Position numbers and translations under genes: made by a program
Shown here: positions 9,804 to 46,167 of the stretch, in pieces
How the letters are laid out: each line of letters begins with the position of its first letter
Position numbering within the stretch: the first letter of the stretch is position 1
Assembly: GCA_963575745.1 (NCBI GenBank)
Contig: CAUYUJ010000016.1
Location: forward strand, 1 to 64,000
Length of the DNA stretch: 64,000 bases
Reading direction: 5' to 3'
Source of the DNA: Prorocentrum cordatum
Taxonomy: Eukaryota
The notes under the pieces: generated by a model
Told to the model about the DNA's origin: nothing
Seen by the model: the letters and a program-made list of their open reading frames with translations, nothing else
The model's database searches: none

Positions 9804-9825
9804 ACCGTAGCCATTTTGGCTCAAG
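9804..9825 (+). other. Genomic copy of the dinoflagellate spliced leader (DinoSL)
   Basis: ACCGTAGCCATTTTGGCTCAAG, 22/22 match to DCCGTAGCCATTTTGGCTCAAG; followed by AC, not the GT donor of an SL RNA gene. Confidence 0.97.
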
Positions 9826-10020
9826 ACTTAAACGCTGTGAAGGGCTATAGACGCCCGAGAACCAGCGATTAGGTCTTGGCCCGTCCGTAGCAGGGCCCAA
9901 GGTTTTGGAGCACAGCGCTCCTCGGCAACACGACCGCTCTGGCCAAGATCCTGGTCAGGTTCACCACTTTCCTCTTTGTTTCTGCTCCCGCTGCGGAGCT
10001 CCAGTCAGCAGGTTCCGTTG

Positions 10021-11457
10021 ATGGCGCCATGGACGTGCGCATGGCAGTGCAGATGCGGGCAGCAGAACTGGAATTCGTCGGTGAACTGCGTCAAGTGCAA
10101 CGGTCATTGGAAGTCTTCCAAGAAAGAGAGCGGCACCAGCAACCCCAAGGGCCGCCAGCGATCCAAAAGCCAGAAGAGCCAGAGATCAGCATCAGAGTCG
10201 CGCCCATGGGAAGACGACCTGAAGTCCAACGGAGCCCCGTTCGTTCGCATGGCGACCCCTGCAGAAACACAGGCTCATCCAGATTACCGACCCCTGAGCT
10301 CGCGCGCCACCGAGTCGGAGAAGAAGGAGTACTACCGCGAGACGCGCTCCAGGCTGAACCTGCTCCAGCAGCGGTACAACCTCGCGTGGGCCATGAGGGA
10401 GCCAGTGCAGGAACTCGCCACTTCCATTTCCATACTGAGAAGAATGTTGATCTCCGAGAAGAGCTTGCACCAGCAAAGTGCTTGGGCGGAGACTACGTTA
10501 GCCAGGATGATGCTGCGCGTGGAAGCAGCAAACAAAGAAGTCATTTCGCTCAAGGACCAGCTCCAAGCGAAGGTCAACATCAGAGACAACTTGCAGGACC
10601 AGCTGGATGCTCTGAAGCGTACCAAGAAGGAGATCCACCAGCTCATGGAGGAGGAGAAGCGCCAGAAGGAACTGGAGGCCAGCGAGGACATGGACGAGGA
10701 CAAGCCGAGCCAGGGCGTTGTGGTCTTCCTCGAGCGCACCTTGGAGGAGATCCCAGCAGGTCAGCCGGCCCCTGCTTCGCCAGTGATTCCGACTCCAGTC
10801 GCGCTCTCCTCCTCAGCATCGACACCGGCGGCGTCCACAGCAGGTACTGCACCATCGAGTGCCAGCATACAGCATGCGGTCCAGCAGCAGGTCGAGGCAC
10901 AGCTGAAGCCCATGGCGGACCAGATGCTGCAGATGCAGCAGATGATGGAGGCCATGATGATGAGAGACGTGGTGCGCGCGGCAGCGCCAGCGGCAGCGGT
11001 AGCAGGCCACATCTCTGTGCCAGCTTCACCAGCGCCGTCACCACCGACTGCAGCTCCCAGTTCACCACCATCGTTGACGCCGACGCAGCCGTGGACGCCG
11101 ATACCGAGGGTGGAGTCCACAGCGCAGGACATGACCGCGGGACGGACTTCGGTGAGGGAGCGGGCTGCGGCTTTCGAGAGCGGCTCCGAGGGCCAGTTCT
11201 CGCTCGGGCCGCGCCAGCGTGGCAGCCAGAGGACGTCAGCATCGCGGAGTCCAAGCGTTCGCACCCAGAGGGCGAGAGCGCCAGGATCTTCAAGGCGTCC
11301 CGCCAACGACAAGGGCAAGTCGAGGGCGGCGATGGCAGCATTCCGCAAGCCGCTGAGACGGACAGATGTCGAGGCGGTCGCTCAGGCAGCGGAGGACCAC
11401 CGAGTGCCGAGCAGCGACGCTGCCCAGATCGACACCTACGCGGAGGCCGAGTACTGA
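10021..11457 (+). CDS. LINE ORF1 protein (RanBP2-like zinc finger, coiled coil, P/S/A-rich tail), 478 aa from ATG
   Basis: Open ORF; WQCRCGQQNWNSSVNCVKC resembles W-x-C-x(2,4)-C-x3-N-x6-C-x2-C with shortened first spacing; E/K/Q/L heptad-rich middle; lies between the SL and ORF2. Confidence 0.8.
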   Translation: MAPWTCAWQCRCGQQNWNSSVNCVKCNGHWKSSKKESGTSNPKGRQRSKSQKSQRSASESRPWEDDLKSNGAPFVRMATPAETQAHPDYRPLSSRATESEKKEYYRETRSRLNLLQQRYNLAWAMREPVQELATSISILRRMLISEKSLHQQSAWAETTLARMMLRVEAANKEVISLKDQLQAKVNIRDNLQDQLDALKRTKKEIHQLMEEEKRQKELEASEDMDEDKPSQGVVVFLERTLEEIPAGQPAPASPVIPTPVALSSSASTPAASTAGTAPSSASIQHAVQQQVEAQLKPMADQMLQMQQMMEAMMMRDVVRAAAPAAAVAGHISVPASPAPSPPTAAPSSPPSLTPTQPWTPIPRVESTAQDMTAGRTSVRERAAAFESGSEGQFSLGPRQRGSQRTSASRSPSVRTQRARAPGSSRRPANDKGKSRAAMAAFRKPLRRTDVEAVAQAAEDHRVPSSDAAQIDTYAEAEY

Positions 11458-11949
11458 GCCTACACGGCCATGATGAGGTGTCGGATGGGGAGATGCTGAC
11501 ACCCACCAACATGCATGTAGACTCTAGCGAGAATACACCGCCACCCCAACGCTGTAGTGTTGAATTCGATAGGACCAAGTCCAAGGTGGCATTCGCCACG
11601 ACTGTGCCTTCTCACTTCTATGATCCCTCCTCTTCCTCCTCCTCTTTTCCCGGTGGTGGGTTGGGCAGTTCGGAGGCGCGGACCCTGGGACTCTGGGGGG
11701 TTCGGAGGTTGGAAGTCTCGTGGGCCCTCAGGTCCTTGACCTTGACAGTCGGATCCCGATCGAGGTCGCGATCGTGGGTGATGATCCTGCCGACTCGATC
11801 AGTTGTAAGTTGGGGCAGATAGGTTTGCTCACGCGCCTCCAACAAGAGGGATGCGAGATAGACCTTGAGTTAGATTTCAACAAAGAGGGCTTGCATGCCC
11901 ACGCGCAGCTTGGCTTGGACATGTGCCCGACTAGCGAGCACGTTGCCGG

Positions 11950-12395
11950 CCAGATTTCAATCTTCGTCGACGGGTCCTTCGACGAAACGAACCCTAGCAC
12001 AGCGGCCTGGGCGATGGCCGTGGTGGCCAAGGACAGAGCAGGAGCCTTTTCTTTTCTGGGGGCTGGGACAGGGAAGGTTATCGCATCCGTTGGCATTTCT
12101 TTAGATACCACTCGTTTTAGCAGCACTACGCCAGAGATGGGGGGTGTCCTCTGGGCCCTGCTTTGGATCGGACTTCTTGGGCAGCATGAGGCTGATGGTT
12201 TTGTCATTGAGTCTGACTCCGCTTCTGCGATTCAGATTGCTGAAGGCTCTGCTCCATCTACTGCCCATCCTGAGTTTGGTACCTTGTTGCGACACTTGGT
12301 CGTGGACCTGCGAGCGAGGTATGACCTCACGTTCCGCCACGTCCCGTCCCACAATGCCCATCCATGGAACGAGTTAGTCGATGGCCTCTCTAAGC
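11950..12395 (+). pseudogene. ORF2 N-terminal RNase H domain
   Basis: IFVDGS...TTPEMGGVLWAL...IESDSASAI...FRHVPSHNAHPWNELVDGLSK gives the D-E-D-H-D RNase HI pattern; a frameshift follows near 12390. Confidence 0.88.
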
Positions 12396-12644
12396 GTAGG
12401 CGAACGGACTCCGAATCTCGCGACCCCCGACTGGGCGATGCTCTTGACCCCTGCGGTAGGAGACGCCTGGTCATGGGTTGCTGAGCTGGAAGCCGATCGC
12501 ATCGCGTATCCTGAGATCACCGAGCACGGTGGACAGGCCAGTTTCATTACGCCCGTGCGCACATACGCGACGGGACACCCTCACCACTACTTACCCCTTG
12601 GACAAGAAGGTGGTCTTGAGCCCCCTAAAGAAATGGCTGGTGAT

Positions 12645-13445
12645 CTCACTCTTAATGTTGCGACCTACAATGCGATGTCCATGCTTGAGAATACCAAAAG
12701 GCAGCAGCGGAGACACAATGCTAAATTGGCCAGAAAACAGTTTCACGAACAGGGCATTCAGGTCCTTGGGATCCAAGAAGCGCGGACACCTGAAGGGACC
12801 AGGTCCGCTGATGGCTACTATATCCTTGCCTCTGGAGGCGACGGGAAAAACTTCGGTGTGGAAGCCTGTTTTTCGCTGACCATTCCGTATATGAGACACC
12901 AAGGTCACCCAAGGTACTTTCAAAAAAAACATTTTCTTGTCACGCATAGATATATCCGCAGGATTGTAGTGCAAGTCCGCGCGCCAGGACTTCATTTCAC
13001 TTTCATGGTCCTGCACGCTCCCTATCAGGACGCGCAGAGCAGGACCATCGATGCTGGTGCACTTCAGAGGTGGTGGGAGGAGACTACCGCGATAGCCCAG
13101 CGTATGTCGGTCGACGTCGTGTCTGTCGATGCTAACGCGCGTGTTGGTAGCATTTCGTCCGTCGCTGTCGGGGTCGGAGGATGGGCGGAGGAAGAAAATG
13201 TTTCGGGAACCTGCTTTCACCAGTGCATGTGCGAGTTAGGTCTTGTCGCCCCCTCCACTTTCTCTGATCCCAGCTGGAGCAGGGATACAGAGCCCAGCAG
13301 TTTCACCTTTGTGAAGAATGGCGCCCACCACAGGATCGATTACGTTCTTGTGAAGCCCCACTTCGTGCCGGCCATCGCTTTCGAGCAAGTCTGGAGTGAT
13401 CTCGATGATCTGATGGAGGTCAGTGATCACTTCCCTGTTGTGCTG
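12645..13445 (+). pseudogene. ORF2 apurinic-like (APE/EEP) endonuclease domain
   Basis: VATYNA, LGIQEAR, LHAP, VDANARVG, RIDYVLV and SDHFPV motifs in canonical order. Confidence 0.92.
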
Positions 13446-14364
13446 GGAATGGCGTGGGTAATCCTCGACAGCCCAGAGCCTAGTAACCGAAGCGAGGTCA
13501 GCAGGCCTAGATACAATCGTAAGTTGACCAGCGACCAGCACAGAGTTGCGATCTTCAAATCATTCTTGTCTACCATCCCCTTGATGCCATGGTCGACTGA
13601 TATCAATAAACAGTATAGTCAAGTTCAGGAGCGGATTCTTTGGGCGGCGGCTGCCGCTTTCCCTGTCCAGGTAGTCTACCCGCGGAAGCCTTACACTGAT
13701 CAGTTGACACTCTACTTCGTCAATTGGAGGCGAAAGAACAAGGCCGTCCTTCGCACTGCCCCTGACAAGGGAGCCCAAGCTATGTACAACTGGGCCAACA
13801 CTCTTGTTCAGCCTTGTCCTGCCCCCGTTTTCGAGGGTGGGGAAGAGGCCCGTAGCCTCTTCATCTCCTTCGAGGCCTGTCTGTGAGAGCTTAAGCTGTC
13901 TGCCTTGGCTTTCTTGGAACTCTTGGACCTCGATTCTTGGGGCGGGGCGTTCCGAAGCCTCCTCTCCGCCACGGCTGGACTGCTCAAAAAGAATTTGGAC
14001 ATCGACAAGACTGACACCCTGGAAAGGATGGTCAGTGATATGAGTGATGCCATCGAGGATGGCAATGCTAAAAAAGAATGGCAGGTTGCTCGGTCCCTTC
14101 AAGCTTTCGGAGGTCGTCGGACGAAACTCCAGGGTGGTGCCCTTCCCATTCGTAACGGGCCCGACGGATGTCCCCTTAAGACGAAGACCGAGGTGGCCGA
14201 TTCGGTTCAGGCCTACTTTGCTGGCATAGAAGGCGGGGCCCTGTACACCGAAAGCGATCTTTGTGCCAAGTATAGCGAAGATAATCGTGACCGCCCCCCC
14301 CTCCTTGAGTGCCCTGCTGAAAATCTGATGACTTGGGATCAACTTCGTTTTTCGTTCTCGCAGG

Positions 14365-15490
14365 CCACCCCAGGCAAGGCAGGGGGACCCGATGACGTTG
14401 TTGAAGATCTTTTACGATGCGCTCCCGCTGAGACTGCCCGACTGGTCCGCCCGGTCATCTTGAAGGCGGGCGTGCGCACTCAGGAGCCACTTGCTTTCAA
14501 GGGAGGGTGGGCCCACGACTTGTATAAGAACAGCGGCAATGCGGCGACGCACGAGAGCTATCGCCAAATACTTCTGATGAACAATGTTGCCAAACACCAT
14601 CACAAATTTGTGAGACATCAGTTTAAAACGTTAATTGCGGGGCTTATGATCGAGACTCAGATGGGTGGGGCCCAGGGAAAAGGGACCGACATGGCGACCC
14701 ATCTGGTTCGTACTTTCTCGGCTGTGTCCTGTGCCAAGGGCCTCTCCACGGTGTTAGCCTTCATCGATCTGAAATCGGCCTTCTACAAGGTCATTCGCCC
14801 CATAGTTATGCCCTTTCTTTTGGACCCCCAGGACATGGCTGACGCTATCGATGCCGCCGATATCCCAGCGGCCCTGGTGCCGATCTTGGAGCACGCCATT
14901 GCGCAACCCTCTGTTTTGGGAGACCTCGACAATGTTCACTTGTTAAGAATGCTGGCGGACCTTCACACTAGCACTTGGTTCAAAACCAAGGGGTCCCGAT
15001 GAGTTATTCGAACCGCCACATGCAGCCGCCCTGGTAGCTCGCCTGCGGACCTCGTTTTCAACCTCCTCTTCGTGCCTATCGTGCGCGAAATTCGAGAGGA
15101 GCTCAGCAGTGCCAACTACCTGCTTGAGCTCGAAGGCCAGCAGGACCCACTTTTTCTCTGCCCCAGGACGCTGAGACTGACTGTCTCGCGGACAGCACCT
15201 TTGTTGATGACCTCTGCGTCATGGCCGTGGTTCAGTGTGCTGCCGACCTCCCCCAGGCGATGTCTGACGTGGTCGTCGCCATCAGCAGCGCCACGGCCAA
15301 GCGAGGCATGACTATTACTTTCAAACAAGGTAAGTCTGCGCTCCTTGTTCACCCTCGAGGTGCGGGGGCCCGCACGGTCAGAGCCGATCTCTTTCCTGTT
15401 GCTGATCCTGTCCATGTCACCCACTATGATGATGAGATATTTCTCCGGCGATCATACAAGTACCTAGGTGCCATGTTAGCCCAAAGTGGA
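14365..15490 (+). pseudogene. ORF2 non-LTR reverse transcriptase domain
   Basis: KAGGPD, YRQILL, QMGG, FIDLKSAFYKV, SRPGSSPADLVF, FVDD (15200-15211), YKYLG; in-frame TGA at 15000-15002 and frameshift near 15160. Confidence 0.93.
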
Positions 15491-16179
15491 AGCCTCGCTC
15501 CCGAGTTGGCCCATAGAAGGACCCAGCAGAAGACGGGGCTCGGACCTTTGCGTAGGACGATTCTCAAGGCCAAAAGGCTCCCCACCAAGACTCGGACCAA
15601 GTATGTTGACGCCCTCTGTACTTCGAGACTGCTTCATAATGCCCATGTTTGGGGAGAGTTGTCTAAGGAGCAGCAGAATGCGATGATTGCCGCCCACCTG
15701 GCTCCTTTCAAGTCCATCTTGGGGATTCGGCTCGGACGCCCCGACCAGCCGCATGTTGCCAACGAGCAAGTTTTGCTCGATGTCGACAGGCTCGCTGTTC
15801 CCGACGTCCTGCGTCTCATGCGGCTTCGGTACTTGGCCAGGCTGATGACTTCGGCCCCGCCCCAGCTGCGGCAGCTCCTCGATATGGAAGGCCGCTGTAA
15901 GAAGTCTTGGGGCGCTCTTGTTCGGGAGGATCTGGCCTGGCTGCAGAAATTCTATGATTTTGAAGCAGATCACACGCTCTCAGCTCGCGAGCTTTTGTTG
16001 CAGGCGTCTGCCGACCCAGCCCGTTGGAAAAGAATCTGCAGGACTGCGGCACGAAATTTTAAAACATGACAAGCAGATCAGTACCGGCAGCAGTTGTGGA
16101 GAAATGAGTTGCGCAACACATGTAAGGCTCACGCCATTCCGCCGCCTGATACTGCTCCGCTCCCTGAGCCGATCACGAA

Positions 16180-16350
16180 GCACGTCTGTGATACGTGCCA
16201 ATATGTGTGCTTCCATGAAGGAGCCATGCGATCCCACATCGCCAAGAAGCATGACGACCCTGCGGGCAGAATCGCCGAGACGGGTCTGTGCCTGGCTTGC
16301 GGGGTTGACTTTGCCACGCGTCCCCGTCTCCTCAAGCACCTTCGGCATGC
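16180..16350 (+). pseudogene. Two C2H2-type zinc fingers in ORF2
   Basis: CDTC-x12-H-x4-H (HVCDTCQYVCFHEGAMRSHIAKKH) and CLAC-x12-H-x2-H (CLACGVDFATRPRLLKHLRH). Confidence 0.8.
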
Positions 16351-16644
16351 TCGTGCTGGTTGTCTCGAGCTCTGGAGTCGTACCATGGCTCCCGTCCCCG
16401 ACGCGAGATGCGAGGAATTGCGTGAAGATGATCGCACTTTGGTGGCCTCCCTGAAGGCCAAGGGTATGCGCGCCACCGAGGCTGACATCCCCGCTCGCCC
16501 CGAGGACCCAGGAGATGCCCTCCTTTCTGCCCTGGATGGTCTCGGTCCTCCTCTGCTCCGCCCTGCTTTTACCCCCGTTGTTTGGTTCCCCGAGGCCGAA
16601 GGGTATGTCCCTCCGAGCCCCCGTATGCTTCAGCCTAGCGAAAC

Positions 16645-17576
16645 TAGATACATTCTCCATCTCTTTAGTAGACAGAGACGGAGAGAAGACTTTCAGCACT
16701 GTGTAGAGTTGTTTCAGATTCTTGAGGCTCCCACTGGGCCTCTTGCCGTTGTCTCGATAGACATCGTCAACAATGATGTCGATGGCGATCTCAGGTCTCA
16801 CAGTGCCCGCAATAAACTTGCTTCACTTGTTTTCCAAGGTCTCGCCATTGGTGTTCTTGTAGGACCCCCGTGCGAGACCTGGTCGTCGGCTCGATTTCTA
16901 GAGGCCCCCCAAGGCCAGCGTTCTCGTCCGCTTCGGTCTATACAGTTCGAGTGGGGTCGACCTCTAGCCACTCCCAGAGTGGGCTCAGATTTCTACAGCG
17001 AATGATCTGTATCGTGCCGCATTGTATTCCATGTACGTTTGTCTTGCATTGGATGCTTGCGGTATGCTCGAGAACCCTGCTTGCCCGTTGAATCAGGTTG
17101 CTCCCTCGAGTTGGTTCCTGAAGGAAACCAGCCACATGCGGACCTTGTCTTCGATGGGTTTTAATGTTGACACGATCTGGATAGACCAGTGTATGCTTGG
17201 TTCGCAGTCGACGAAACCAACGATGTTCCTGACAGTGAATCTTCCCTCCGTGCGCAGAGAAGTCCACGTGATGCCGAACCGAAGACGCTGCAACCATGGA
17301 GGCCACGCGATTCTGGAAGGAGTCGATAACTTAGGCCGCTGGAAGACCCAGGCAGCCAAGCAGTATCCTCCCGAGCTGTGCATGTTTCTTGCCCGACATT
17401 TTGTCGCGTTCGCTTGTCAGGAGCTCAGAGAGAGGGGTGAGGTCCATCCGCGGAGCAGTGTTGACCTGACCCGTCACCCCCCTCTCGATCCTTCTTTGGC
17501 GTGCTTCTTTTGCCCGCTCGACCCGTACTGTGAGGCCCAGCAGGTCGGTGCCTACAATCAAGATTTCCATTTGTAA
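16645..17576 (+). pseudogene. C-terminal C5 cytosine DNA methyltransferase-like domain of ORF2
   Basis: Motif I-like ILHLFS[R] (expected FSG), VSID, catalytic GPPCETWS (Cys codon 16871-16873), LENP (17070), DQCMLG..KPT, motif X-like AAKQYPPELC; frameshift near 16980-17020. Confidence 0.82.
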
Positions 17577-17646
17577 GCTCGCCATTCCCGAATTCACGTG
17601 CTGGCAGCGGATCTTCGTCCCCTAATGCCGTCGAACAGAACAGACC

Positions 17647-17833
17647 AGGAGAAGGAGGAGGAGGAGGAGAGGCGGAGGAACGAGGAACAAGGAGGAGGAG
17701 GAGTGAGGAGGAGAAGGAGGATGATGAGGAGGAAAGGAGGAGGAGGACGAGGAGGAGGAGGAGGAGGAGGGGGAGGAGGGGGATGAGGAGGGGAGGAGGA
17801 GGAGGAGGGGAGGAGGAGGAGGAGGAGGAGGAG

Positions 17834-17868
<35 letters not shown>

Positions 17869-17963
17869 GAGGAAGAGGAGGAAGCGGAGGAGGAGGAGGA
17901 GGAGGAGGAGAAAGGAGGAGGAGGAGGAGGAGGAGGAGGAGGAGGAGGAGGAGGAGGAGGGGA

Positions 17964-22509: not shown

Positions 22510-23215
22510 CACGCTGCGCCGCCAGGCCTGCCAACTCACCTGCATGCTTGTTGCCTGCGTTGAGAAAGGCCTGCCTGGCCGAAAGCCGCTGGCCCGCGTC
22601 CTCCACGGGGGGGGCGGCCTGCACGGAGGGGGGAGGACAGGGCCGGAGGAGGAGGAGGAGGAGGAGGAGGAGGAGGAGGAGGAGGAGGAGGAGGAGGAGG
22701 AGGAGGGGCAGGAGGAGGAGGAGGAGGAGGAGGAGGAGGAGGAGGAGGAGGAGGAGGAGGAGGAGGAGGAGGAGGCGGCCGTCCACGCGGCGTGCACCTC
22801 GGCCTCGCCGCGCTCGCGAAGAGGCCGCCGCCGCTCGATGCCGCAGGAGCCTGCTTCGGGCCCTGGCCTGCCGGGGGGCGCGGCCCGCTCTCCGATGCGC
22901 CCAGGACCGGCTGGCCATCGATGGCGTACACGAGCGGGCCCGCGGTTCCCTCCAGCGCCACGGCGAGCGCCGCCATCTCCGCGCGCGGCACTGTTTGCCG
23001 CGGCCCAATATTCAATCTTATTAAGCTTTGCAGATTGCTGAATCTTTATGCATATTAGCACGAGAATATTTTATGAGCCGGGGGCCCGACACGCCACAAG
23101 CTGGCTCCCAGGAGCCGTCGTCTCCCTGCTAAAACTGAAGGCGGCCGCCGAGCCGCACCTGCGTCTCCCGGGGTCGCTGCTGAACTGTCCGCCCGACCCA
23201 TCCCCAAAGAAGCGC
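22510..23215 (-). pseudogene. RNase H domain interrupted by two insertions
   Basis: GDGSG...[AT-rich insert]...QTVPRAEMAAL...AIDGQPV...[(CCT)n]...GNKHAGELAGLAA. Confidence 0.75.
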
Positions 23216-32247: not shown

Positions 32248-32370
32248 ATGTGTGTATGTATGTATGTATGCATGCATGTATGTATGTATGTATGTATGTA
32301 TGCATGTATGCATGTATGTATGCATGTATGTATGCATGTATGTATGTATGTATGTATGTATGTATGTATG

Positions 32371-32410
<40 letters not shown>

Positions 32411-32659
32411 TGTACGTACGTACGTACGTACGTACGTATGCATGTATGTATGTATGTATGTATGTATGTACGTATGTATGTATGTATGTATGTATGTATG
32501 TATGTATGTATGTATGTATGTTTGCATACATGTATATATGTATGTATGTATGCATGCATGAATGCATAACTGTATGTATGTATGTATGTATGTACGTACG
32601 TACGTATGTATGTATGTATGTATGTATGTATGTATGTATGTATGTATATATATGTATGT
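32248..32659. repeat. (ATGT)n microsatellite, target site of the SL-capped short element
   Basis: Direct reading. Confidence 0.95.
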
Positions 32660-32686
32660 CACTCGTACACCATGGGTCTGTTCATC

Positions 32687-34168
32687 TTAGCGGGGTCGGA
32701 GCACGGCAGCAGCCAGCTCAGAAGTCGTAGAAGAGGAAGCCGTCGAAGACGACAAAGAAGATGTCGAGCCTCCCTGGCCGCATGGGTTCTCGCATGTCCT
32801 CGGCTCCTCCGCCGAATCTGCGACCAGGAAGGCTGGTTTAATCAGCTTGCAGCCGTCGATACCTAAGAACTCCACCTGAACCCTCTCTCCGACGAAGCCA
32901 CGGACGCAGCCCACCAGCCCATTCAGAGCCGACGTAGCGAGGCTGTGCGGGCGCACCAAGTCACCCACCTGGAAATGGTCGCCCTGGCACTCGGGAAGGG
33001 ACACGGGGCCATCGCCCTTGACCCGGTCACTCCAGGGAACTTGAGGCGCCACATTCCCAAATTTGGTCTCAAGAGCCTGGACCTTCCTCTCCAGTGTGTC
33101 TAGAATCTTCGCAGAAGCGGCACTCACAGCAGACAGACATTGGTCGCCCAGAGATCGCTGATGAGTCGTGAAACTGTCGCACAGCTCCTGCTTCAGAGTG
33201 TCCAAAGGAGACTGCAAAGATAGGCTGGCAGCGTCCAGAATGTGTGACTTCATTTCCTCGAGCTTAGGCGGCAGCCGACGGCTGAGCGAAGCCTCGACCG
33301 CTCTGGCGAGTTCAGCTTGCAGCTGGGTGACCTGCGCCGACACTGCAGCAGTTTTGTCATCCACGTAGGCCTGCAGCACCGAAAAAGAGATATTAGGAAG
33401 GGCCACCGTCCTCAGCTGCTCCAGCTCCTGGATCAACAAAGCAATCGTGTTGTTCTGAGCGTCGATCAGCTGTTGCACAGAAGAGTCCCCAGTAATGAGA
33501 TGGGAGTGCCCCCTGCCCGCCGAACTGCCGCAGGGGCCTGGGCCAGGCTCAGCCAAAACACGACAAGGGCGTGCAAACTTATAACGAGGAGCCACAATCT
33601 TGCCACAATCACCAGTACAAGACAAAAACGAATTGTTGCCATTAGCGTTGCAAGCATCCTGAGGGACGAATTCAGTGACCAAAGGGTTGAATTTGGATAC
33701 CGCTGGTGGCAAACCCTGCCCACAAGAAAGGGCGTCGAATATGCTAATAATGCAGGGCCCAGGCCCCGAGCGCTCAGAAGATGGTACGTCCACCACCGAC
33801 TTACCATACCCACCTCTCTGCCGCCTGCGGCGCCGGCAAAACGATGGGAAAAAGCAGAACCACTGTGAATGTTTCGCGGCACCAGCAGCCGAGTTGACCA
33901 TCATAGCCAGGCGAAAGATGGGAGCAGGAATAAGACCATGAAGAAACATAATCGCAGCACATGTTGAAGTAAACTCCCGTCCAGCAGCCGCCACCGCACA
34001 CGAATGAATCGTAAGTTGCAAACCAATGATTAAAAGACGATATGGGATCGAAGAGAAGCCAGCCGCGATGCAGAGGCAGAAGGATAGCGCCACATCAGCA
34101 GCCCACAGGCAGCATCGCGGGGACACGAGGGGGACCATGCCGAGCAAAGATGAATTGCGCAGCGACAT
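32687..34168 (-). CDS. 493-aa intronless ORF1-like protein (hydrophobic N-terminus, PAM2-like motif, coiled coil, C-terminal SH3/KOW-like segment)
   Basis: ATG 14 nt after the SL; uninterrupted frame; SKFNPLVTEFVP; QQLIDAQNNTIALLIQELEQL...; FQVGDLVRPHSL..ALNGLVGCV...RVQVEF...KLIKPAFL. Confidence 0.7.
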   Translation of the reverse strand: MSLRNSSLLGMVPLVSPRCCLWAADVALSFCLCIAAGFSSIPYRLLIIGLQLTIHSCAVAAAGREFTSTCAAIMFLHGLIPAPIFRLAMMVNSAAGAAKHSQWFCFFPSFCRRRRRQRGGYGKSVVDVPSSERSGPGPCIISIFDALSCGQGLPPAVSKFNPLVTEFVPQDACNANGNNSFLSCTGDCGKIVAPRYKFARPCRVLAEPGPGPCGSSAGRGHSHLITGDSSVQQLIDAQNNTIALLIQELEQLRTVALPNISFSVLQAYVDDKTAAVSAQVTQLQAELARAVEASLSRRLPPKLEEMKSHILDAASLSLQSPLDTLKQELCDSFTTHQRSLGDQCLSAVSAASAKILDTLERKVQALETKFGNVAPQVPWSDRVKGDGPVSLPECQGDHFQVGDLVRPHSLATSALNGLVGCVRGFVGERVQVEFLGIDGCKLIKPAFLVADSAEEPRTCENPCGQGGSTSSLSSSTASSSTTSELAAAVLRPR

Positions 34169-34182: not shown

Positions 34183-34204
34183 CTTGAGCCAAAATGGCTA
34201 CGGA
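34183..34204 (-). other. Genomic DinoSL copy
   Basis: Reverse complement reads TCCGTAGCCATTTTGGCTCAAG (22/22). Confidence 0.97.
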
Positions 34205-35038
34205 TGTATATATATGTATGTGTATGTGCATGTGTATGTGTATGTGTGTGTGGTTGTGATAATGATAATGATTTTGATTGTGATTGTGTGTGTGACCCTT
34301 TGGACCACCCTTCGGGTGGATGCATCGACGGAGAAAAGGGCGGCCGAGGTTGGGGTGGCCTGAAAAATGCGGAGGCGGGCGAGGAACGAGGGAATGTGGA
34401 GAGACACAAGAGAGGAGGAGGAGGAAGAAGAGGAGGAAAGGGCTCACGAGGAGGTGGCCTCCACCTTCGCCTCCCGCCTCAGCGCGAGCTTCGCCCCCCC
34501 CCGGCTTCTCCTTGGCGCGTCCCCGCTCCCCTCCCCAGCGGCCCGCGGAGGAGCGCCGCTCCTCCGCCTTCGCCTCGTACACGGCGCCGATGGTCCTGAC
34601 CCCCCCTCCCCCCCCCTTGGTGGGTCCCGCCCCCCCTCCGCCGTGGTCAGCGGGGCGGGCGCCTTGGGACAACCCGCGACGTCGACCCTCGGAGTGCGGG
34701 GCGCGGCCAGAAGGTCGCGCCGCAGCGCGGCGGGCCAGGACCGGCGGCGCAGCCCGTCGAGCCAGAGCTCCCGACCGTGAGCCGGGACATTGCCGACCAG
34801 GGCTCCGAGGATTCCACCCGGAGGGAGAGAAGAACATCGGAGGCCTGGAAATGGGCACCAGCACCAACACAAGGGGGTTTGCCTCCACAGGGGGAAGATG
34901 GATCCCCGTTTTTTGTTTTTGGTGGTGCCAGCTCGGTCACCACGGGGGCCAGAAGATTGCCACCCTCACCGAGATCGGGATCTCCTTCCCTCGGTGGAGG
35001 CGCACCGCCGATATTGGTACTGGTGTCAACCTCCAGGC

Positions 35039-41177: not shown

Positions 41178-41263
<86 letters not shown>

Positions 41264-42269
41264 GCTCGACGGCGTCGAAGTCGTGCGGCAGACCCCGGGC
41301 CGAATCGATCATCTTCCGCCGCTGCTCCTGCGCATCGCTGGGGAGAGGATGTGCAGCGTCGGGATCCTCGTCGCCTTGCTGCCACACCTGATCACAATCA
41401 AAAGACTGGTGCCCGAAAGTGCCCTCGGCCACGCCGCAGAACTGACGTGTCGAACTGCGGGAACATCCCATCGCGAACTTTCGCGCTGGGGGCCCGAGCC
41501 CCCCCCCCCCCGAGCAGGCGCCTCGAGGTAGCCTTGCGCGCTGGATTTCGCGCCAAGTTCACGCCCCAACGAGGCGCGCGACCCCGCGCATTCTCGGATC
41601 CGTGCGCCTCGGGGATAGTGGAGGGCAGATGCAACGTCTGGGCTCGATGGATGCCCCCTCTGAACTGCTGCCTAACATCACGAGGGGAGACTAACAGCAA
41701 GTTCGAAACTTCGTCCTGGTCAATTTTGACCACGTGGGGCCCGGCGAGATCCCACCCGACACGGCAAAGGCCAAGCTGAACCGCCACGACGGGGCCCCGC
41801 GCGAGCCTCCGAAAGGGCTGCAGAGAAGTGTTCCATCAGCCTTTTGCCAGGCCTTCAACAAATCAACGTCGCTCACCCAGATCCAACAGCAATAACGAAG
41901 CACTAGCGGAACCGTCGCGCCGACCACGGGATCGTAGCTGGGATCGTGATGGGTGGCAAGGCAGGCTGTGTGAAGCACGCGGCCTCGGGCTCCCACGAGC
42001 TCGGCAGCCAGCGCTCGCAGCGATCTTAAAGTGGAGCCCTGGAGGCCCATGACCGCCGCCCCGTGACCCCCGCTGGGCATTGAGGCCGCGCGCCAGAGCG
42101 CGGCCACCTTAGGCCCGGCAGTCCTCTTGAGGACTCGCAGCTTCGCCCGACGTTCCTGGAGTTTTCGTTTTTTTTTTTTTTTTTTTTGTTTGTTGTTGTT
42201 GTTTGTTTTCAAATTATTTTCCCTTTTTCTTTATAATAGTTATTTTTTCATCAAACATTAATTTTACGC

Positions 42270-43250
42270 GCGCCTCCCGAAAAAAAAGTCATGGCCCACA
42301 TTCCTTAAATTCTTGTTGCCTCTGAAACTTGGGACCGAGGCGTCAAACTTAATTCGCTTTTCTGCCGCAGTGCTGCGTGCCAGGCAGCCTGACATGTTAG
42401 GCTGAAACAATAGGCCAATCGGTGCAACGCGACGGCACAGCTCACGAACCGCCTTGAACACCACATCGGCTCTCGCAACATCTGGCCCTTCCCATTGCAG
42501 CGAGACGTCGCGTCGTCCATAAGGGCACGAACCTGCACTGCTGGGAATCTCCTGACCGTCTCTCTCACGGGCGCCAGGAGCACAGCAAGCATCGTGGCGC
42601 CAGCGTGAACGCCCCACCAGGATTCCCTGGAAGGAGACGTACCTTTCGCTCAAACTGCCGAACGCGTCTAGTCGTCTGGGGGCTGTGTAGCACTGAATGA
42701 GTATCCACCCCAATCGGAAGGGGGACACCTTCCTGTCGGAAAATCTCAGAAACACGACCGAGAGCTTAATCATGTCATAGCACTTGGCCATGTCAAGCAA
42801 CGCACCAGTCCAATGTAGATCCTTTGCCTTGGCTGCGGCCGACAGGTTCAAATCAAGGGCCGGATCGCTAGAACTCCGCCCCTTCCCGCTCCCCCAGAAA
42901 TCATCCGTTCTATGTTCGCTCTCCCAGCGCTCTGATGCAGGCCGTCGAAGCCTGCTCTACACTCGGATGAACGTGTCTAGGAACGCTATCAAACGGTGGC
43001 CACCGTCTGGCTCTGCTAAACGTATACGCCCACTGACCCGACGCCGATCGGGCCAGCGCAGACGCACATTTCACACTGATGCAGCAATGCAGCGAAGGCC
43101 TCGAGGGCCTCATCGGAAAGGTACATCAGCGACCGAGGATGTATGTGACAGCGCCCTACAGCCGCGCGCTCTGGAAACTTCAAGATGGCTGCCCGGAGAC
43201 CAGACGCATACACCTCAGGGAGGGGGTCCCAAAGATGCGCGTCTCCAAGG
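42270..43250 (-). pseudogene. Reverse transcriptase remnant
   Basis: FWGSGKGRSSSD, GALLDMAKCYDMI, QGILVG, LMDD in a shifted frame. Confidence 0.8.
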
Positions 43251-44129
43251 ATCTCTGGCTCGGGAGCGCCCGTGGGTGGCCCAAATTTTCCCCCACTCCG
43301 ACATCGCGTCATGAGACAGCTCGTAGGTCGGGCCCTTCGGGTGGTTCCCGTGACCTCCTGGATCGCGCGGGCCCTCCAGAAGTGATGGGCCCCCTCGGCC
43401 CCCCCCGCAAAACTGTCTCGGGCCCACTTTTGCCACTCGTTGCTTTTCTCAGCCAGGTGGGTCGTCTCGTGTTCGGCGGCGCGGTCTAAAATGCGGTGCG
43501 CGAAGTCCTGAAAAAGCGGGGTCTGCTAGGGCCGACAATCTGGCCTTGAAAAAGCCGCTTGAGAACGAGTCCAGCTGGCTGTGCGCCCGCTCGATCCTGG
43601 CGACGCAGCCGTAGTGTCGTTCCACGTCCAGCAGCGCCTTGGCGACCCTGCGCGCGCGGCTGTCCTGGTCTCCGCCGTCGAGGTCCAGCCTGGGCACGTA
43701 GGTGCGCAGCAGCGTGTCTACCTGCCTCAAGTGGCGGGCCCACCTGGCCGCCATGCTCCAGGCAGCCTGCTCGGAGGTCACCTGCAACGTCTAGGGCTTC
43801 GGGACGAACTGCAGCCTCTTCCGCGCCACCTCATGAGGTCCTTCGCGGCCCTCGTAGGCGCGGCGCTCAATCCCCATGGCGCCGTGCCTATCCAGCAGCT
43901 CGCGCCCCACTCCCTTCAAGAAGACGCCCCAGTGCTCGCTCAGGTCGGCTCCGCTCTTAGCCGACTTGACCTTCTCGTGCAAATGGTTCCAGTGACGTGG
44001 GTGCCTCGTGCAACCAGGCTTCGCCATGGTCGGAGTGCGCATGGGCTGACGCGCCACTCGGGGCCGCAACATCGCGTCCGCTCCCAACGGGCCCAACTGG
44101 ACTGGCTTGTGAGGCGCGGAGTCAACATC

Positions 44130-44780
44130 ATCTAATGCAACTGCTCGGCTGGTGCGAATAGCGAGGTTCGCGCTGATGAAGATGTTGTCAATGGCAGTGC
44201 CTGGGGCCGACTGCAGACAAGTAGCCGCAGCTGGCGCCGAAATAACTTAGCCGCAAATAACGGCCCAGCTGCCCGAGATCTCCGGCTCCATCTGAAAGTC
44301 GCCGCCGATGACCCGCTCCCAGCCGAGCTCGTTCAGCTGGGCGCAGTTCCTGGCCGCCTCCGCCAGGAGCGCCGCGTTGAAGGCGCCCGCCTGGCCATCC
44401 ACGTGCAAGTGGAGCGAGGTCGCGACGAAGCCGCCCTTGGCCACGGAGTGCAAGTGCCCGGCCACGGCTCGCGCCGACGCCAACTGCCCTCCTGCCGCGA
44501 GGGGCGGCGCTGTGATCTGAATCTTCCCGGGGCTGAGAATGCCCCCCCCCCCCCCCGACTTTCCCCCGCAATCGGTGGCCGGAGCCCTCGACCATGTGCC
44601 GTGGTATCCAACCGCGCCTGCTCGAACCAGGAAGTCGGGCAGCTCGTCGTCCACATGGAGTTCCTGCGCGCGAAGAATCATGGCCTCCCTATCGAGCGAA
44701 CCCGAGGGCTCCTTCGCCTCAAGCAGCTTGCCAAGGGGGGCGTGGCTCGTAGCATTAGCTGTTGCGACTCTGACCATGGC
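44130..44780 (-). pseudogene. APE endonuclease remnant
   Basis: VRVATANATS, AQELH, VIGGDFQMEP, AIDNIFIS. Confidence 0.75.
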
Positions 44781-46145
44781 TACTAAGTGGAAGAGCATTC
44801 TCACGATTCTACAAGTCTGGAAGGCTGGCGTACGCGGACGAAGCGCGCCTGATCTTCTTCGCGAAGTTCTCCAACTGTTCACTTGCTCGTTTGGTTGCTT
44901 CGCCAAGTTCTTCGTCTAAGTCTGGGGCAGCCGCGTGGGCACTTCTAAGAAACTCACGTAGCGCATCAGGGTCGGCATCCGCAGCCTTTGGGATCCACTC
45001 TGGCCCAGGGCCAGGGTTGGCGCTGCCACCGCCTCCCTCGCCCGCAGCTTGCTCCGCGGCTGCTGCTGCCTGCCTGGCGCTCTCGGCCTCGCGCTGCTGC
45101 TTCTCCCTGTGAGCCTTCTCCGCGTCCCGCACCTCCGCGAGCGCGCTGTGAAGGTTCTTCGCCATCGCCTCGGACGCGCCGACCCCCTGCAAGATCGAGC
45201 CCAATTGCTCGACCGTGGGCTCGGTGCTGGACCCGAGCACCTGGCCCAGCGACTGCGGCTTCCCTTTCTGCGACTCTGGAGGCTGAGGGGCTTCCGCAAC
45301 GAGTGCGCGCCGCAACTCCTCCAGCTCAAGCAGCTCCGCCTTCGTGCCGCTGAGCGCTGCGGAGGCCTCCCGCACAGCTTCTTGCGCCTGCAGCACCTTG
45401 CCCTCCAGCTCCAGCAGCTGATCTTGTTGCCTCTTGGCCTTTGCCTCCAGCTTCGCGTGCTGGAAGGACATCTTCTTGAGCCGCATGTCCACCGGCTTCG
45501 ACTCCGCCCACTGTTTGCGAAGCCTTGCCTGCTTCTCTCGAAGCAGGCGATCATCCTCTTGAGCCTCCTCCGATTTGACATCCTTGATCGCGTCGATGTG
45601 TGCCGCCAGCCCCGCCTACTGCTGCTTGATGTCACTCGGGGCGCCCGCATTGCCTCCGTCGACATCCATGGCTGACGGTGGCGGCTCGGGCGGGGCCTTG
45701 GCGACTCCTGCTGACGCTGACGCAACTGCTGTTCCACAGTCGACTTCCCTGGCGCATGCAAAAGACTCTGCGGCGGGGCTGAAGGCTTCCGAATACCTCC
45801 GAATGCAGTGGACTAGTGCTGCTGGCATTTGCTGTATTCTGACAAATCAGCACGGTTCCACTACTGTTCTCCTTTGTTGTAACAACAATGTTTGCACACC
45901 CGCGGAGAAGCCCAAGCCTTCCGAGCCTTCTGGTGCCCCGAAAATACAGGCCCTCGTGCTCGTCCCTGCTGCGGTGCCATCTGGCTCGGCCTCTGAGCCT
46001 CGCCGACGTCGTGACAAGGTGAAGGAAATGCAGGCTAACCGCGGTACCGTATCGAAGATGTGGCGCCGCCAGGGGCGACAAAAACGGTGGGGGCCGTCCC
46101 TCCCCCTTGCCAGGCGGCTCCTGTCCTTGAGCGAAACACTACGGA

Positions 46146-46167
46146 CTTGAGCCACAATGGCTACGGA
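46146..46167 (-). other. Genomic DinoSL copy (1 mismatch)
   Basis: Reverse complement TCCGTAGCCATTGTGGCTCAAG (21/22). Confidence 0.93.

What the first reader, a model, noticed from the sequence alone, without database searches (positions are those of the whole stretch)
9804..46167. Three independent retroelements each begin exactly at a full spliced leader
Seen: DinoSL at 9804-9825 (+), 34183-34204 (-) and 46146-46167 (-), each at the 5' junction between a microsatellite and a retroelement, none followed by the GT donor of an SL RNA gene. Known: dinoflagellate mRNAs are SL trans-spliced and relic SLs mark recycled cDNAs. Inference: these elements transpose through trans-spliced RNA. The SL's terminal AG could act again as acceptor, regenerating a precise capped 5' end from read-through transcripts, so no internal promoter would be needed.
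Basis: partly seen in the sequence, partly recalled or inferred. Interest (0 to 1): 0.82.

Follow-up and report, generated by a model that had tools for sequence, protein, structure and literature searches.

The report
Spliced-leader-capped LINEs inside microsatellites
Two worn jumping genes (LINEs) and one retro-copied gene of the dinoflagellate Prorocentrum cordatum each begin with a DNA copy of the short leader that the cell splices onto its messenger RNAs and sit inside simple repeats, so they were copied back from mature messages, which points to LINEs as the engine of dinoflagellate gene retro-copying.

Summary
The three DinoSL copies are real: 9804-9825 (+) and 34183-34204 (-) match 22 of 22, 46146-46167 (-) matches 21 of 22. 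None is expected by chance. Each abuts a microsatellite and none is followed by GT. Only two head retrotransposons. Element 1 (9804-17646) and element 3 (from 46167 downwards) are decayed endonuclease/RT LINEs of two unrelated families. Element 2 (34204-32660) is a 1.5-kb intronless copy of an orphan P. cordatum gene with no RT, so it is a passenger retrocopy.

Elements 1 and 2, and a 5'-truncated LINE at 25416-22776, carry the same repeat motif on both flanks and no poly(A). An unrelated environmental contig holds an intact LINE with the same layout.

Best reading: LINE reverse transcription copied mature trans-spliced RNAs to their 5' ends, within microsatellites. Relatives of element 2 carry leader plus a 15-nt relic, which indicates the internal AG.

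Leader-tagged retrocopies are known. I found no explicit description of leader-headed, repeat-embedded LINEs in six literature searches. This scan noted the same thing before on other pieces of this genome.

The parts
9707..9803 (+). (GGA)n microsatellite abutting the 5' end of element 1
   Evidence: TRF row 9707-9802, period 3. Sequence read. Repeat score 0.89 for the 30 nt upstream.
9804..9825 (+). DinoSL copy 1, 22 of 22 (ACCGTAGCCATTTTGGCTCAAG), first bases of element 1
   Evidence: Followed by AC, not GT.
9826..10020 (+). 5'UTR of element 1 (195 nt)
   Evidence: Sequence. ATG at 10021 is in the frame of the ORF listed as 9841..11457; translated 10021-11454 in that frame without a stop.
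10021..11457 (+). Element 1 ORF1 (478 aa). The N-terminal Cys motif resembles a RanBP2-type zinc finger; the coiled-coil look of the rest is eyeballed.
   Evidence: The frame is open (and the translation). BLASTP to the Pfam-validated zinc ribbon of L132 ORF1 gives E 0.010, which is weak. The same ORF1 sequence recurs in P. cordatum gene models P0009 and P0010 (consensus).
11624..17576 (+). Element 1 ORF2 region, decayed: RNase H-like 11624-12481, endonuclease 12378-13883, RT 13887-14999 continuing 15128-16066, C2H2-like finger about 16070-17002, last ORF to the stop near 17575. In-frame stops at 13884 and 15000, and at least one frameshift near 15100-15300.
   Evidence: Pfam hits RNase_H E 2e-3, Exo_endo_phos 1.7e-3 and RVT_1 1.7e-3, all below the curated cut-offs but collinear. 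Read-through translation. Homolog P0011 matches at E 3.7e-32 and carries Exo_endo_phos at 34 bits against a cut-off of 24.5, plus a weak C2H2 hit. In the protein atlas 30 of 30 named hits are RVT_1, score 0.92.
17577..17646 (+). 3'UTR of element 1, no poly(A)
   Evidence: Sequence.
17647..17960 (+). (AGG)n microsatellite at the 3' end of element 1, the same motif and strand as the 5' flank
   Evidence: TRF; sequence.
34205..34290 (-). (CA/CATA)n repeat abutting the 5' end of element 2
   Evidence: Sequence. TRF row 34211-34252. Repeat score 0.83.
34183..34204 (-). DinoSL copy 2, 22 of 22 (TCCGTAG...)
   Evidence: Followed by CC.
32687..34168 (-). Element 2 ORF (493 aa, P0001) after a 14-nt 5'UTR (34182-34169). 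Orphan protein with no retroelement domain.
   Evidence: Translation. Pfam finds nothing below E 0.2. It is an annotated P. cordatum protein in a 7-member 90% cluster. Alignment.
32660..32686 (-). 27-nt 3'UTR of element 2, no poly(A)
   Evidence: Sequence.
32248..32659 (-). (ACAT)n microsatellite at the 3' end of element 2, the same motif as its 5' flank
   Evidence: TRF (ATGT)n on the + strand; sequence.
46168..46277 (-). (CCT)n on the element strand, abutting the 5' end of element 3
   Evidence: Sequence. TRF row 46165-46277. Repeat score 0.93.
46146..46167 (-). DinoSL copy 3, 21 of 22 (T to G in CCATTGTGG)
46126..46145 (-). Second, degenerate leader-like 20-mer (tccgtagtgtttcgctcaag). It keeps the TCCGTAG head, so it is an older full leader and not a truncated relic.
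   Evidence: Sequence. By my own hand alignment it matches 17 of 22 with a 2-nt gap.
41694..44915 (-). Element 3 LINE body, decayed: endonuclease-like 44915-43794, RT 42956-42267, thumb 42230-41694. The 3' end is not located (somewhere between about 40400 and 37023).
   Evidence: The long frame has 3 in-frame stops. The RT piece has 73 hits at E<=1e-3 among 1.84 billion representatives. The EN, RT and thumb pieces hit the same long proteins. The RT piece matches the element 4 RT at E 9e-4. Profile A3, which includes it, hits LINE-1 ORF2p 8c8j at E 2.6e-9. The EN piece aligns to the Pfam Exo_endo_phos region of L139 ORF2 at E 5.9e-4. Pfam alone finds nothing.
22776..25416 (-). Element 4: a 5'-truncated LINE (RT onwards) of the element 3 family. 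It has no leader and lies between (CCT)n blocks on the element strand (25417-25467 and 22775-22645).
   Evidence: Junction sequences. The RT ORF 24181-25383 gives 28 of 30 atlas hits as RVT_1, score 0.95. It is the first row of profile A3, which hits L1 ORF2p. BLASTP to the L139 ORF2 RVT_1 region gives E 1.7e-11.

Best explanation
All three units are DNA copies of mature, spliced-leader (SL) trans-spliced RNAs. I propose they were inserted by LINE target-primed reverse transcription that ran to the very 5' end of the template.

Element 1 and element 3 are autonomous-type LINEs (ORF1, then endonuclease and RT) of two unrelated families. Both are now decayed. Element 2 is a passenger: the processed mRNA of an orphan P. 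cordatum gene family, copied by the same kind of machinery.

Shown:
- A full leader sits at the first base of each unit.
- There is no SL-gene intron at either junction.
- Elements 1 and 3 have LINE domains.
- Elements 1, 2 and 4 have the same repeat motif on both flanks and no poly(A).
- The element 2 family carries leader + 15-nt relic in other members.

Inferred:
- Copies lie in repeats because the RNA 3' end pairs with a nicked repeat of the same motif. That 3' end may be an element tail, or read-through into the flanking repeat.
- New rounds start from read-through transcripts that are trans-spliced again, mostly at the first AG met. That is the internal AG of an old leader, or an AG of a purine-rich flank.
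For: Leaders are exact and non-random, sit on repeat edges (about 2e-6 by chance), and are followed by AC, CC and TC. The three bodies are unrelated: self-BLASTN and tBLASTN find no shared sequence.

Element 1:
- Collinear weak Pfam hits for RNase H, endonuclease and RT.
- Homolog P0011 at E 3.7e-32 has Exo_endo_phos above the cut-off.
- Atlas: 30 of 30 named hits are RVT_1.
- It is a multi-copy family. 416 contigs of run X1 lie over all 30 bins at 85-100% identity, and one crosses the leader/5'UTR junction.

Elements 3 and 4:
- 73 relatives for the element 3 RT piece.
- The pieces are collinear on the same long proteins.
- The profile hits LINE-1 ORF2p at E 2.6e-9, R2 at 1.3e-4 and a group II intron RT at 7e-5.

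Flanks:
- (GGA)n | element 1 | (AGG)n.
- (CA/CATA)n | element 2 | (ACAT)n.
- (CCT)n | element 4 | (CCT)n.

Element 2 family: 7 members at 90% identity or more. The N-termini of P0006 and P0007 read LAQAILAQARLAKM, against SVAILAQARLAKM in the genome. That corresponds to leader + relic + the same 5'UTR.

Independent replicate: contig L139 (9096 bp, GC 0.70, from a mis-binned MAG).
- Layout: (GA)n | leader 117-137 | 93-nt 5'UTR | intact ORF1 | intact ORF2 | short 3'UTR ending in A6 | (GA)n.
- ORF1 carries a RanBP2 zinc ribbon at 30.9 bits (cut-off 27).
- ORF2 is 2353 aa from its ATG, with Exo_endo_phos at 36.6 bits (cut-off 24.5) and RVT_1 at 43.3 bits (cut-off 29.6).
- L135 has a leader, then an Exo_endo_phos ORF (32.9 bits) 0.9 kb downstream.

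In that sample of leader sites that are not SL genes, 3 of 12 assessable sites have a repeat directly upstream at score 0.8 or more, and a fourth (L120) scores 0.75. For SL RNA genes the figure is 0 of 6.
Against: - No transcript of either LINE was seen, and no RNA run is listed.
- No target-site duplication can be read, because the flanks are repeats.
- The 3' end of element 3 was not found, so 'same motif on both flanks' is untested for it.
- Microsatellites also occur inside element 3 (41068-41263) and cover much of the window, so some flank repeats could be later expansions.
- Pfam alone does not recognise element 3, and it scores element 1 below its cut-offs.
- The parent gene of element 2 is unknown, so 'intronless copy of an intron-bearing gene' is untested.
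- P0006 and P0007 come from contigs of unknown type (DNA or RNA) that I could not fetch (one search found 0).
- Two loci of the MAG sample (L121, L127) lie on long contigs and may not be dinoflagellate DNA.
Confidence: 0.8

Rival explanations
1. In a leader-bearing genomic copy, the leader's own terminal AG (CTCAAG|) is the acceptor. Each round then regenerates exactly one leader, and the element needs no promoter of its own.
For: Every full-length LINE copy other than a family's founder must descend from a retrocopy that already had a genomic leader. Yet element 1, L139 and L135 show one leader and no relic. The terminal AG lies exactly where the original acceptor must have been.
Against: Where 5' ends of relatives can be read (element 2 family, 2 of 2: P0006 and P0007), the internal AG was used and a relic was left. 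Element 3 has leader + old leader. L130 has a leader + 2 relics. A few leaderless master copies would also give single-leader daughters. No LINE transcripts are available.
Confidence: 0.3
2. Inherited leader. The leader was acquired once and is now ordinary element sequence, transcribed from an internal promoter that starts at base 1 (as in jockey/L1-type LINEs). No trans-splicing is needed in later rounds. This would be leader mimicry.
For: It explains single leaders without relics and exact 5' ends. The upstream flanks differ between copies, so any promoter would have to be internal. Encoded leaders do exist elsewhere: giant-virus contigs carry the leader behind a conserved AT-rich block.
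Against: Three unrelated 5'UTRs (element 1, element 3, element 2), plus L139 and L135, all carry the leader. A passenger mRNA (element 2) has it too, and an internal LINE promoter cannot explain that. Relics and tandem leaders show repeated addition.
Confidence: 0.12
3. Site-specific insertion into SL RNA genes, as in SLACS/CRE/NeSL. On this view the leader belongs to the target, not to the element.
For: Only the bare co-occurrence of a leader and a non-LTR element.
Against: The complete leader is upstream and directly joined to the element. What precedes it is a microsatellite, not an SL gene promoter. No GT donor or intron follows the leader, and none lies at the 3' junctions, which are repeats. 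Real SL genes in the MAG sample look different: leader + gtac...cctttttg, with no repeat upstream (6 of 6).
Confidence: 0.02
4. The microsatellites are not targets. They arose or expanded after insertion, or they simply reflect how repeat-rich this region is.
For: Repeats cover much of the window and occur inside element 3. 10% of positions have a repeat upstream.
Against: All three leaders and the truncated end of element 4 sit exactly on repeat edges. The motif and strand are the same on both flanks for elements 1, 2 and 4 and for L139. The pattern recurs in unrelated contigs with other motifs: 3 of 12 at score 0.8 or more, plus L120 at 0.75.
Confidence: 0.1

Closest known systems
DinoSL-relic retrogenes, 'recycled processed cDNAs'. 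Slamovits & Keeling 2008 is recalled, and is described in passages of PMC6050394 and PMC7245778. Song et al. 2017 is PMC5585692 (passages read).
   Same: A genomic leader sits directly upstream of an intronless unit. Re-expression adds a new leader and leaves a 15-nt relic, as seen in the element 2 family. Song et al. report the GO term 'RNA-dependent DNA replication' enriched among leader-tagged genes. RT genes with leaders were therefore already in their sets, though not discussed as such.
   Different: Here the tagged units include the autonomous LINEs themselves. The copies lack poly(A) and are embedded in one repeat motif on both sides. The passages that I read in these papers do not describe either point. 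The 2018 review states that the responsible element is unknown and favours copia.
Symbiodinium LINEs, including SymbioLINE-Dnmt (de Mendoza et al. 2018, PMC5890265, passages read)
   Same: Dinoflagellate LINEs with Exo_endo_phos, RVT_1 and RNase_H domains, conserved UTRs and no poly(A) tail.
   Different: That paper has 0 occurrences of 'spliced leader'. It reports TSDs, not repeat-embedded copies. No DNMT domain was detected here by Pfam.
SL-gene-specific non-LTR elements SLACS, CRE and NeSL (recalled)
   Same: Non-LTR retrotransposons physically linked to spliced-leader sequence.
   Different: Those elements insert into SL RNA genes and use a restriction-like endonuclease. Here the leader is the element's own 5' end. 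The endonuclease is of the Exo_endo_phos type, and neither flank is an SL gene.
Microsatellite-specific LINEs of the R1 clade: Waldo, Mino, Kibi, Koshi and Dong
   Same: The same simple repeat lies on both sides of the insertion, with one motif per family.
   Different: Clade membership was not tested. The RT profile here is closest to LINE-1 ORF2p. Those animal elements carry no spliced leader.
L1-mediated processed pseudogenes of mammals (recalled; cited in PMC12014239 and PMC5585692 passages)
   Same: LINE machinery copies cellular mRNAs in trans. Element 2 next to LINEs with the same junction signature fits this.
   Different: Mammalian copies have poly(A) tails and TSDs, and are mostly dead on arrival. 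Here there is no poly(A), the flanks are repeats, and the copy family shows leader + relic, a sign of re-expression.

Membership tests
DinoSL-tagged retrocopy (recycled processed cDNA) | Genomic DinoSL (full or relic) directly at the 5' end of the unit, not part of an SL RNA gene | tested here: met
   3 of 3 sites match 22/22, 22/22 and 21/22. The next bases are AC, CC and TC.
DinoSL-tagged retrocopy (recycled processed cDNA) | Relatives or transcripts carry a new leader followed by a 15-nt relic cut at the internal AG | tested here: met
   Met for the element 2 family only. The N-termini of P0006 and P0007 read LAQ-AILAQ-ARLAKM. Element 3 has a full old leader instead. Element 1 has none.
DinoSL-tagged retrocopy (recycled processed cDNA) | Intron-less copy of an intron-bearing parent gene | not testable with these tools
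   No whole genome is held. Only near-identical paralogs were found, and no parent.
Poly(A)-dependent processed pseudogene (L1 type) | Poly(A) tail at the 3' end, and a target-site duplication | tested here: not met
   The 3' ends run straight into (AGG)n and (ACAT)n with no A run. A TSD is unreadable in repeats. L139 has only A6 before (GA)n.
APE-type LINE (non-LTR retrotransposon) | Reverse transcriptase domain of the LINE type | tested here: met
   Elements 3 and 4: the profile hits LINE-1 ORF2p at E 2.6e-9. Element 1: RVT_1 at E 1.7e-3, below the cut-off, with 30 of 30 atlas hits as RVT_1. L139: RVT_1 at 43.3 bits, above 29.6.
APE-type LINE (non-LTR retrotransposon) | Exo_endo_phos (APE-like) endonuclease N-terminal to the RT | tested here: met
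   Element 1 scores E 1.7e-3 itself, and its homolog P0011 scores 34 bits against 24.5. The element 3 piece aligns to the Exo_endo_phos region of L139 ORF2 at E 5.9e-4. Pfam on element 3 itself finds nothing.
APE-type LINE (non-LTR retrotransposon) | RT or endonuclease in element 2 | tested here: not met
   Pfam finds nothing below E 0.2. Homologs are only orphan P. cordatum proteins without Pfam domains. The AF2 model has pLDDT 44 and is uninformative.
SL-gene-specific LINE (SLACS/CRE/NeSL) | Insertion within an SL RNA gene, with SL intron or gene sequence at the junctions | tested here: not met
   Both junctions of elements 1 and 2 are microsatellites, and no GT follows the leader.
Microsatellite-targeting LINE | The same repeat motif and strand on both flanks | tested here: met
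   Element 1 has GGA/AGG, element 2 CA-CATA/ACAT, element 4 CCT/CCT and L139 GA/GA. Element 3 is untested because its 3' end was not found.
Microsatellite-targeting LINE | Empty target sites are uninterrupted repeats, and the endonuclease nicks the repeat | not testable with these tools
   This needs other alleles or genomes, or biochemistry.

The most novel reading that the evidence does not exclude
Dinoflagellate LINEs may live entirely on host RNA processing and on simple repeats.

- Copies embedded in a microsatellite are transcribed by read-through and capped by SL trans-splicing, so they need no promoter.
- They read out into the flanking repeat, so their RNA ends in a repeat tail. That tail primes reverse transcription at other repeats of the same motif.
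- The same machinery copies ordinary SL-mRNAs such as element 2. This would make LINEs, not copia elements, the long-sought engine of the mass retroposition that shaped dinoflagellate genomes.
- It would also tie the spread of retrogenes to the genome's microsatellite load.
Probability: 0.35. Interest if true: 0.8.

Novelty: new variant of a known kind. Interest (0 to 1): 0.55.

Why it matters
Reviews of dinoflagellate retrogenes say that the element behind the very frequent retroposition is unknown. About a fifth of genes carry leader relics, and the reviews lean to copia (PMC6050394; PMC12014239).

This window puts three things side by side: two leader-headed LINE families, a truncated LINE, and a leader-headed passenger gene copy. 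They share one junction signature, with no poly(A) and the same repeat on both flanks. The signature recurs on an intact LINE in an unrelated contig.

That gives a concrete, countable signature for testing LINE-mediated retroposition genome-wide. It also gives a way to ask whether these elements depend on trans-splicing instead of a promoter.

It has a practical side too. Two P. cordatum gene models (P0009, P0010) are chimeras that swallowed pieces of this LINE family.

Tried and rejected
- Whole genome: none is held.
I used shorter ones instead.
- Pfam on element 3 read through its stops: 0 families.
- Single-sequence searches of solved structures with element 1, element 3, element 4 and P0011: 0 hits each.
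- The search for homologous proteins with the element 4 RT at 'near' lengths: no hit. Relatives are longer proteins.
- Pfam on 12 relatives of the element 3 RT: no RVT_1 at E<=1e-3. One weak Exo_endo_phos hit in P0056.
- Alignment A4 for an element 1 profile was too messy to use.
- A Cys-rich motif that I thought elements 3 and 4 shared downstream: BLASTP E 1.9, dropped.
- Element 1 ORF (frame 9891-11819, not the ORF1 frame) against P0001: no similarity, E 0.28. Element 1 RT against element 4 RT: none.
- Metagenome scans for an element 2 coding pattern and for the start of the element 1 5'UTR: 0 loci each.
- IMG/VR scan for the leader: 134 unique sites, nearly all in AT-rich giant-virus contigs. 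It is no use for nuclear LINEs.
- Sequencing runs: no RNA holder is listed. There is one small DNA holder, X1, and X2 and X3 laid nothing.
- Earlier-findings look-ups by sequence: nothing. By place: nothing.
- AF2 of P0001: pLDDT 44, so no fold search was made.
- phmmer of window pieces against L139 ORFs gave no hits, while BLASTP did.
- The first literature search with the term 5' was a syntax error; one search replaced it.
- Searches that found no explicit description of leader-headed LINEs. Supplements of these papers were not opened and may hold relevant tables.

Full report
**Organism and setting**

The window is nuclear DNA of a dinoflagellate. The 493-aa ORF of element 2 is, letter for letter, an annotated 'unnamed protein product' of Prorocentrum cordatum. 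The window has 58% G+C and is very rich in simple repeats: 69 TRF rows, including a (TAG)n array of almost 5 kb. Apart from the units below, no ORF of 200 aa or more gave a meaningful Pfam match. No whole genome is held.

**The observation**

The 21-nt DinoSL core occurs three times at up to 3 mismatches: 9805-9825 (+), 34183-34203 (-) and 46146-46166 (-, one mismatch). In 100 shuffles the mean was 0.00 matches.

The next two bases are AC, CC and TC, so none of the three is an SL RNA gene. The 15-nt relic pattern finds nothing else above chance.

Each leader is preceded, without a gap, by a microsatellite: (GGA)n, (CA/CATA)n and (CCT)n, read on the element strand. In this window 10.1% of positions have a repeat in the 30 nt upstream and 1.3% are repeat edges. 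All three leaders are on edges, roughly 2e-6 by chance.

**Element 1 (9804-17646, +) is a LINE**

After the leader come:
- a 195-nt 5'UTR;
- an ORF1 of 478 aa (10021-11457);
- a decayed ORF2 region with collinear weak Pfam hits to RNase H, Exo_endo_phos and RVT_1 (E about 2e-3 each, below the curated cut-offs). It is broken by two in-frame stops and at least one frameshift.

The read-through ORF2 finds P0011 (E 3.7e-32). P0011 has Exo_endo_phos above the cut-off and a weak C2H2 hit. It also finds two P. cordatum gene models, P0009 and P0010, at 80-86% identity. These are chimeras of this LINE with an aspartyl protease and an ion channel. The protein atlas gives RVT_1 for 30 of 30 named neighbours.

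The element ends 70 nt after its last stop codon, with no A run, directly in (AGG)n. That is the same motif and strand as its 5' flank.

It belongs to a multi-copy family. 416 short contigs of a related DNA run lie over all 30 bins. Of these, 37 are at 99% identity or more, 84 at 95-99%, 151 at 90-95% and 144 below 90%. One contig crosses the leader/5'UTR junction with a 1-nt deletion.

**Element 3 (from 46167, -) is a LINE of another family, much more decayed**

A frame of 787 codons has only three stops. Pfam and single-sequence structure searches see nothing. The evidence for LINE identity is as follows:
- Its 230-aa RT piece has 73 relatives at E<=1e-3 among 1.84 billion representatives, many of them 1100-2300 aa long.
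- Its endonuclease-like, RT and thumb pieces hit the same long proteins.
- A profile of that family, containing the element 3 piece and the intact RT ORF of element 4, hits LINE-1 ORF2p (8c8j, E 2.6e-9), R2 (1.3e-4) and a group II intron RT (7e-5).
- Its endonuclease-like piece aligns to the Pfam-validated Exo_endo_phos region of the L139 LINE (E 5.9e-4).

I could not place its 3' end.

Behind its leader lies a second, degenerate leader-like 20-mer that keeps the TCCGTAG head. This is a full old leader, not the usual truncated relic.

**Element 4 (25416-22776, -)**

It is a 5'-truncated member of the same family. It starts just before the RT, has no leader, and lies between two (CCT)n blocks.

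**Element 2 (34204-32660, -) is not a retroelement in the strict sense**

Its layout is leader, 14-nt 5'UTR, a 493-aa ORF, a 27-nt 3'UTR and then (ACAT)n. The 5' flank is the same kind of repeat.

The protein has no Pfam family and no relatives outside a 7-member cluster at 90% identity or more. Its AF2 model is of low confidence and shows only N-terminal helices and a long central helix.

Two members, P0006 and P0007, sit on contigs of only 1590 and 1574 nt. Their N-termini run through the 5'UTR and read LAQ-AILAQ-ARLAKM, where the window reads SVAILAQ-ARLAKM. Back-read, that is ...TTGGCTCAAG + CCATTTTGGCTCAAG + the same 5'UTR. This is a new leader joined at the internal AG of an older, DNA-encoded leader. 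Whether those contigs are RNA or DNA, the inference is the same: leader-bearing copies of this family were re-expressed and trans-spliced at CCGTAG|CC. That is the classic relic described for dinoflagellate retrogenes (passages in PMC7245778; PMC6050394).

**An independent replicate**

The exact leader occurs at 20 unique sites on contigs mis-binned into prokaryote MAGs.
- Six are SL RNA genes (leader + gtac...cctttttg). None has a repeat upstream.
- Of 14 other sites, 12 have enough upstream sequence to judge. Three of the 12 abut a microsatellite at score 0.8 or more: (TCA)n, (GA)n and (GACA)n. A fourth, (GT)n, scores 0.75.

One of these, the whole 9096-bp contig L139, is an intact LINE. Its layout is (GA)n | leader | 93-nt 5'UTR | ORF1 | ORF2 | 31-nt 3'UTR and A6 | (GA)n.
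- ORF1 is 370 aa with a RanBP2 zinc ribbon above the Pfam cut-off.
- ORF2 is 2353 aa from its first ATG, with Exo_endo_phos and RVT_1 above the cut-offs.

Its RT is related to that of element 4 (E 1.7e-11). L135 has a leader followed 0.9 kb later by an Exo_endo_phos ORF. L130 shows a leader plus two relics.

Two loci on long contigs (L121, L127) may not be dinoflagellate DNA and carry little weight.

**Mechanism**

Shown:
- Full leaders sit at the first base of unrelated units.
- No SL-gene sequence lies at either junction.
- Two of the three units have LINE domains.
- The flanks carry the same motif, and there is no poly(A).
- A relic occurs in the passenger family.

Inferred:
- These are products of LINE target-primed reverse transcription of mature, trans-spliced RNAs, run to the cap.
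- Insertion happens in repeats because the RNA's 3' end pairs with the nicked repeat. That 3' end may be a repeat tail, or read-through into the flanking repeat.
- New rounds start from read-through transcripts that are trans-spliced at the first suitable AG.

The tandem full leaders of element 3 fit a parent whose purine-rich flank ended in AG right at the old leader. This is inference only.

The terminal-AG idea is not shown, and the element 2 family contradicts it. It is not excluded for the LINEs, and it has one argument in its favour. Every full-length LINE copy descends from a copy that already had a leader, yet three LINEs show one leader and no relic: element 1, L139 and L135. A few leaderless master copies would explain that equally well. 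So would an inherited leader with an internal promoter.

Insertion into SL genes, as in SLACS/CRE/NeSL, is contradicted by both junctions.

**Known or new**

Leader relics as marks of retroposition are well known. Song et al. 2017 even report 'RNA-dependent DNA replication' enriched among leader-tagged genes, so leader-tagged RT genes were implicitly in their lists.

De Mendoza et al. 2018 describe Symbiodinium LINEs without poly(A) but never mention the leader. The 2018 and 2025 retrogene papers and the 2024 genomics review call the responsible element unknown or merely suspect retrotransposons. Veglia et al. 2023 argue for LINE-mediated integration of RNA-virus genes from proximity only.

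In six full-text searches I found no paper that states either of two things: that dinoflagellate LINEs themselves begin with the leader, or that they and retrogene copies are embedded in one repeat motif. I read passages only, not whole papers or supplements.

Other agents of this scan noted leader-headed LINEs on other pieces of this genome, including ones inside (TCC)n. I treat those as leads, and they agree with what I see here.

**Verdict**

The label 'three retroelements' is two-thirds right. The general reading, transposition through trans-spliced RNA, is well supported by anatomy and by an independent intact example. The specific splice-site cycle is open.

A specialist would probably expect LINE mRNAs to be trans-spliced like all others, so the leader itself is only mildly surprising. 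The added value is the shared repeat-embedded, poly(A)-less signature of LINEs and a passenger gene copy. That signature makes the question 'which machinery makes dinoflagellate retrogenes' directly countable.

Noticed in passing
IMG/VR loci L001-L119 (e.g. L011, L013, L020, L024, L060): The exact DinoSL occurs at 134 unique sites, nearly all on AT-rich giant-virus MAG contigs. There it follows a conserved AT-rich block (e.g. aaatcaattttttattttttatttttaaatataaatttta) and runs straight into gene-specific sequence. Only 3 of 134 are followed by GT. It looks as if giant viruses of dinoflagellates encode the host leader at the start of many genes. One title-level literature search showed no paper on this.
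   Followed up: partly
L047, L049, L067, L084: These are GC-rich IMG/VR contigs with a leader next to long ORFs (770 to 1100 aa). In L047 and L084 the leader is preceded by a run of G. They are probably dinoRNAV-like RNA-virus sequences or their endogenous copies, for which a 5' dinoSL is described in PMC10235124.
   Followed up: partly
window 21210-21371, 32061-32189, 49294-49457: An interspersed repeat of about 170 bp, with three copies in the same orientation at 78-83% identity. Two of them lie just downstream of the 3' repeats of elements 4 and 2. Its nature is unknown; it may be SINE-like.
   Followed up: partly
window 50748-52293 and 52745-58069: An 89-bp satellite with 17.5 copies, then a (TAG)n array of about 4.9 kb. 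The array continues after a 100-N assembly gap at 57611-57710.
   Followed up: no
proteins P0009, P0010 (P. cordatum gene models): Annotated proteins that join an aspartyl protease or an ion-transport domain to 80-86% identical pieces of the element 1 LINE family. They are probably chimeric gene predictions.
   Followed up: partly
window about 41850-41950 (-) and 41068-41263: Element 3 carries an A-rich stretch (read as NNNNKQKKKKKKRK) inside its RT-thumb region. It also has internal (ATG)n/(TCA)n repeats between the zinc-knuckle-like and the putative RNase H regions. So repeats also grow inside these elements.
   Followed up: no
window 16900-17576 (+): The C-terminal part of element 1 ORF2, after a C2H2-like finger, has no Pfam match. 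It holds a GPPCETWS motif that reminded me of the cytosine methyltransferase motif IV. This is a recalled resemblance only and was not tested.
   Followed up: no
L127 8001-8021 (-) and L130: In L127 the leader is flanked on both sides by the same 19-nt sequence (ttttgcttgcaggcgtgag). A sub-threshold RVT_1 ORF lies 4 kb downstream. L130 ends in a leader + two perfect 15-nt relics.
   Followed up: no
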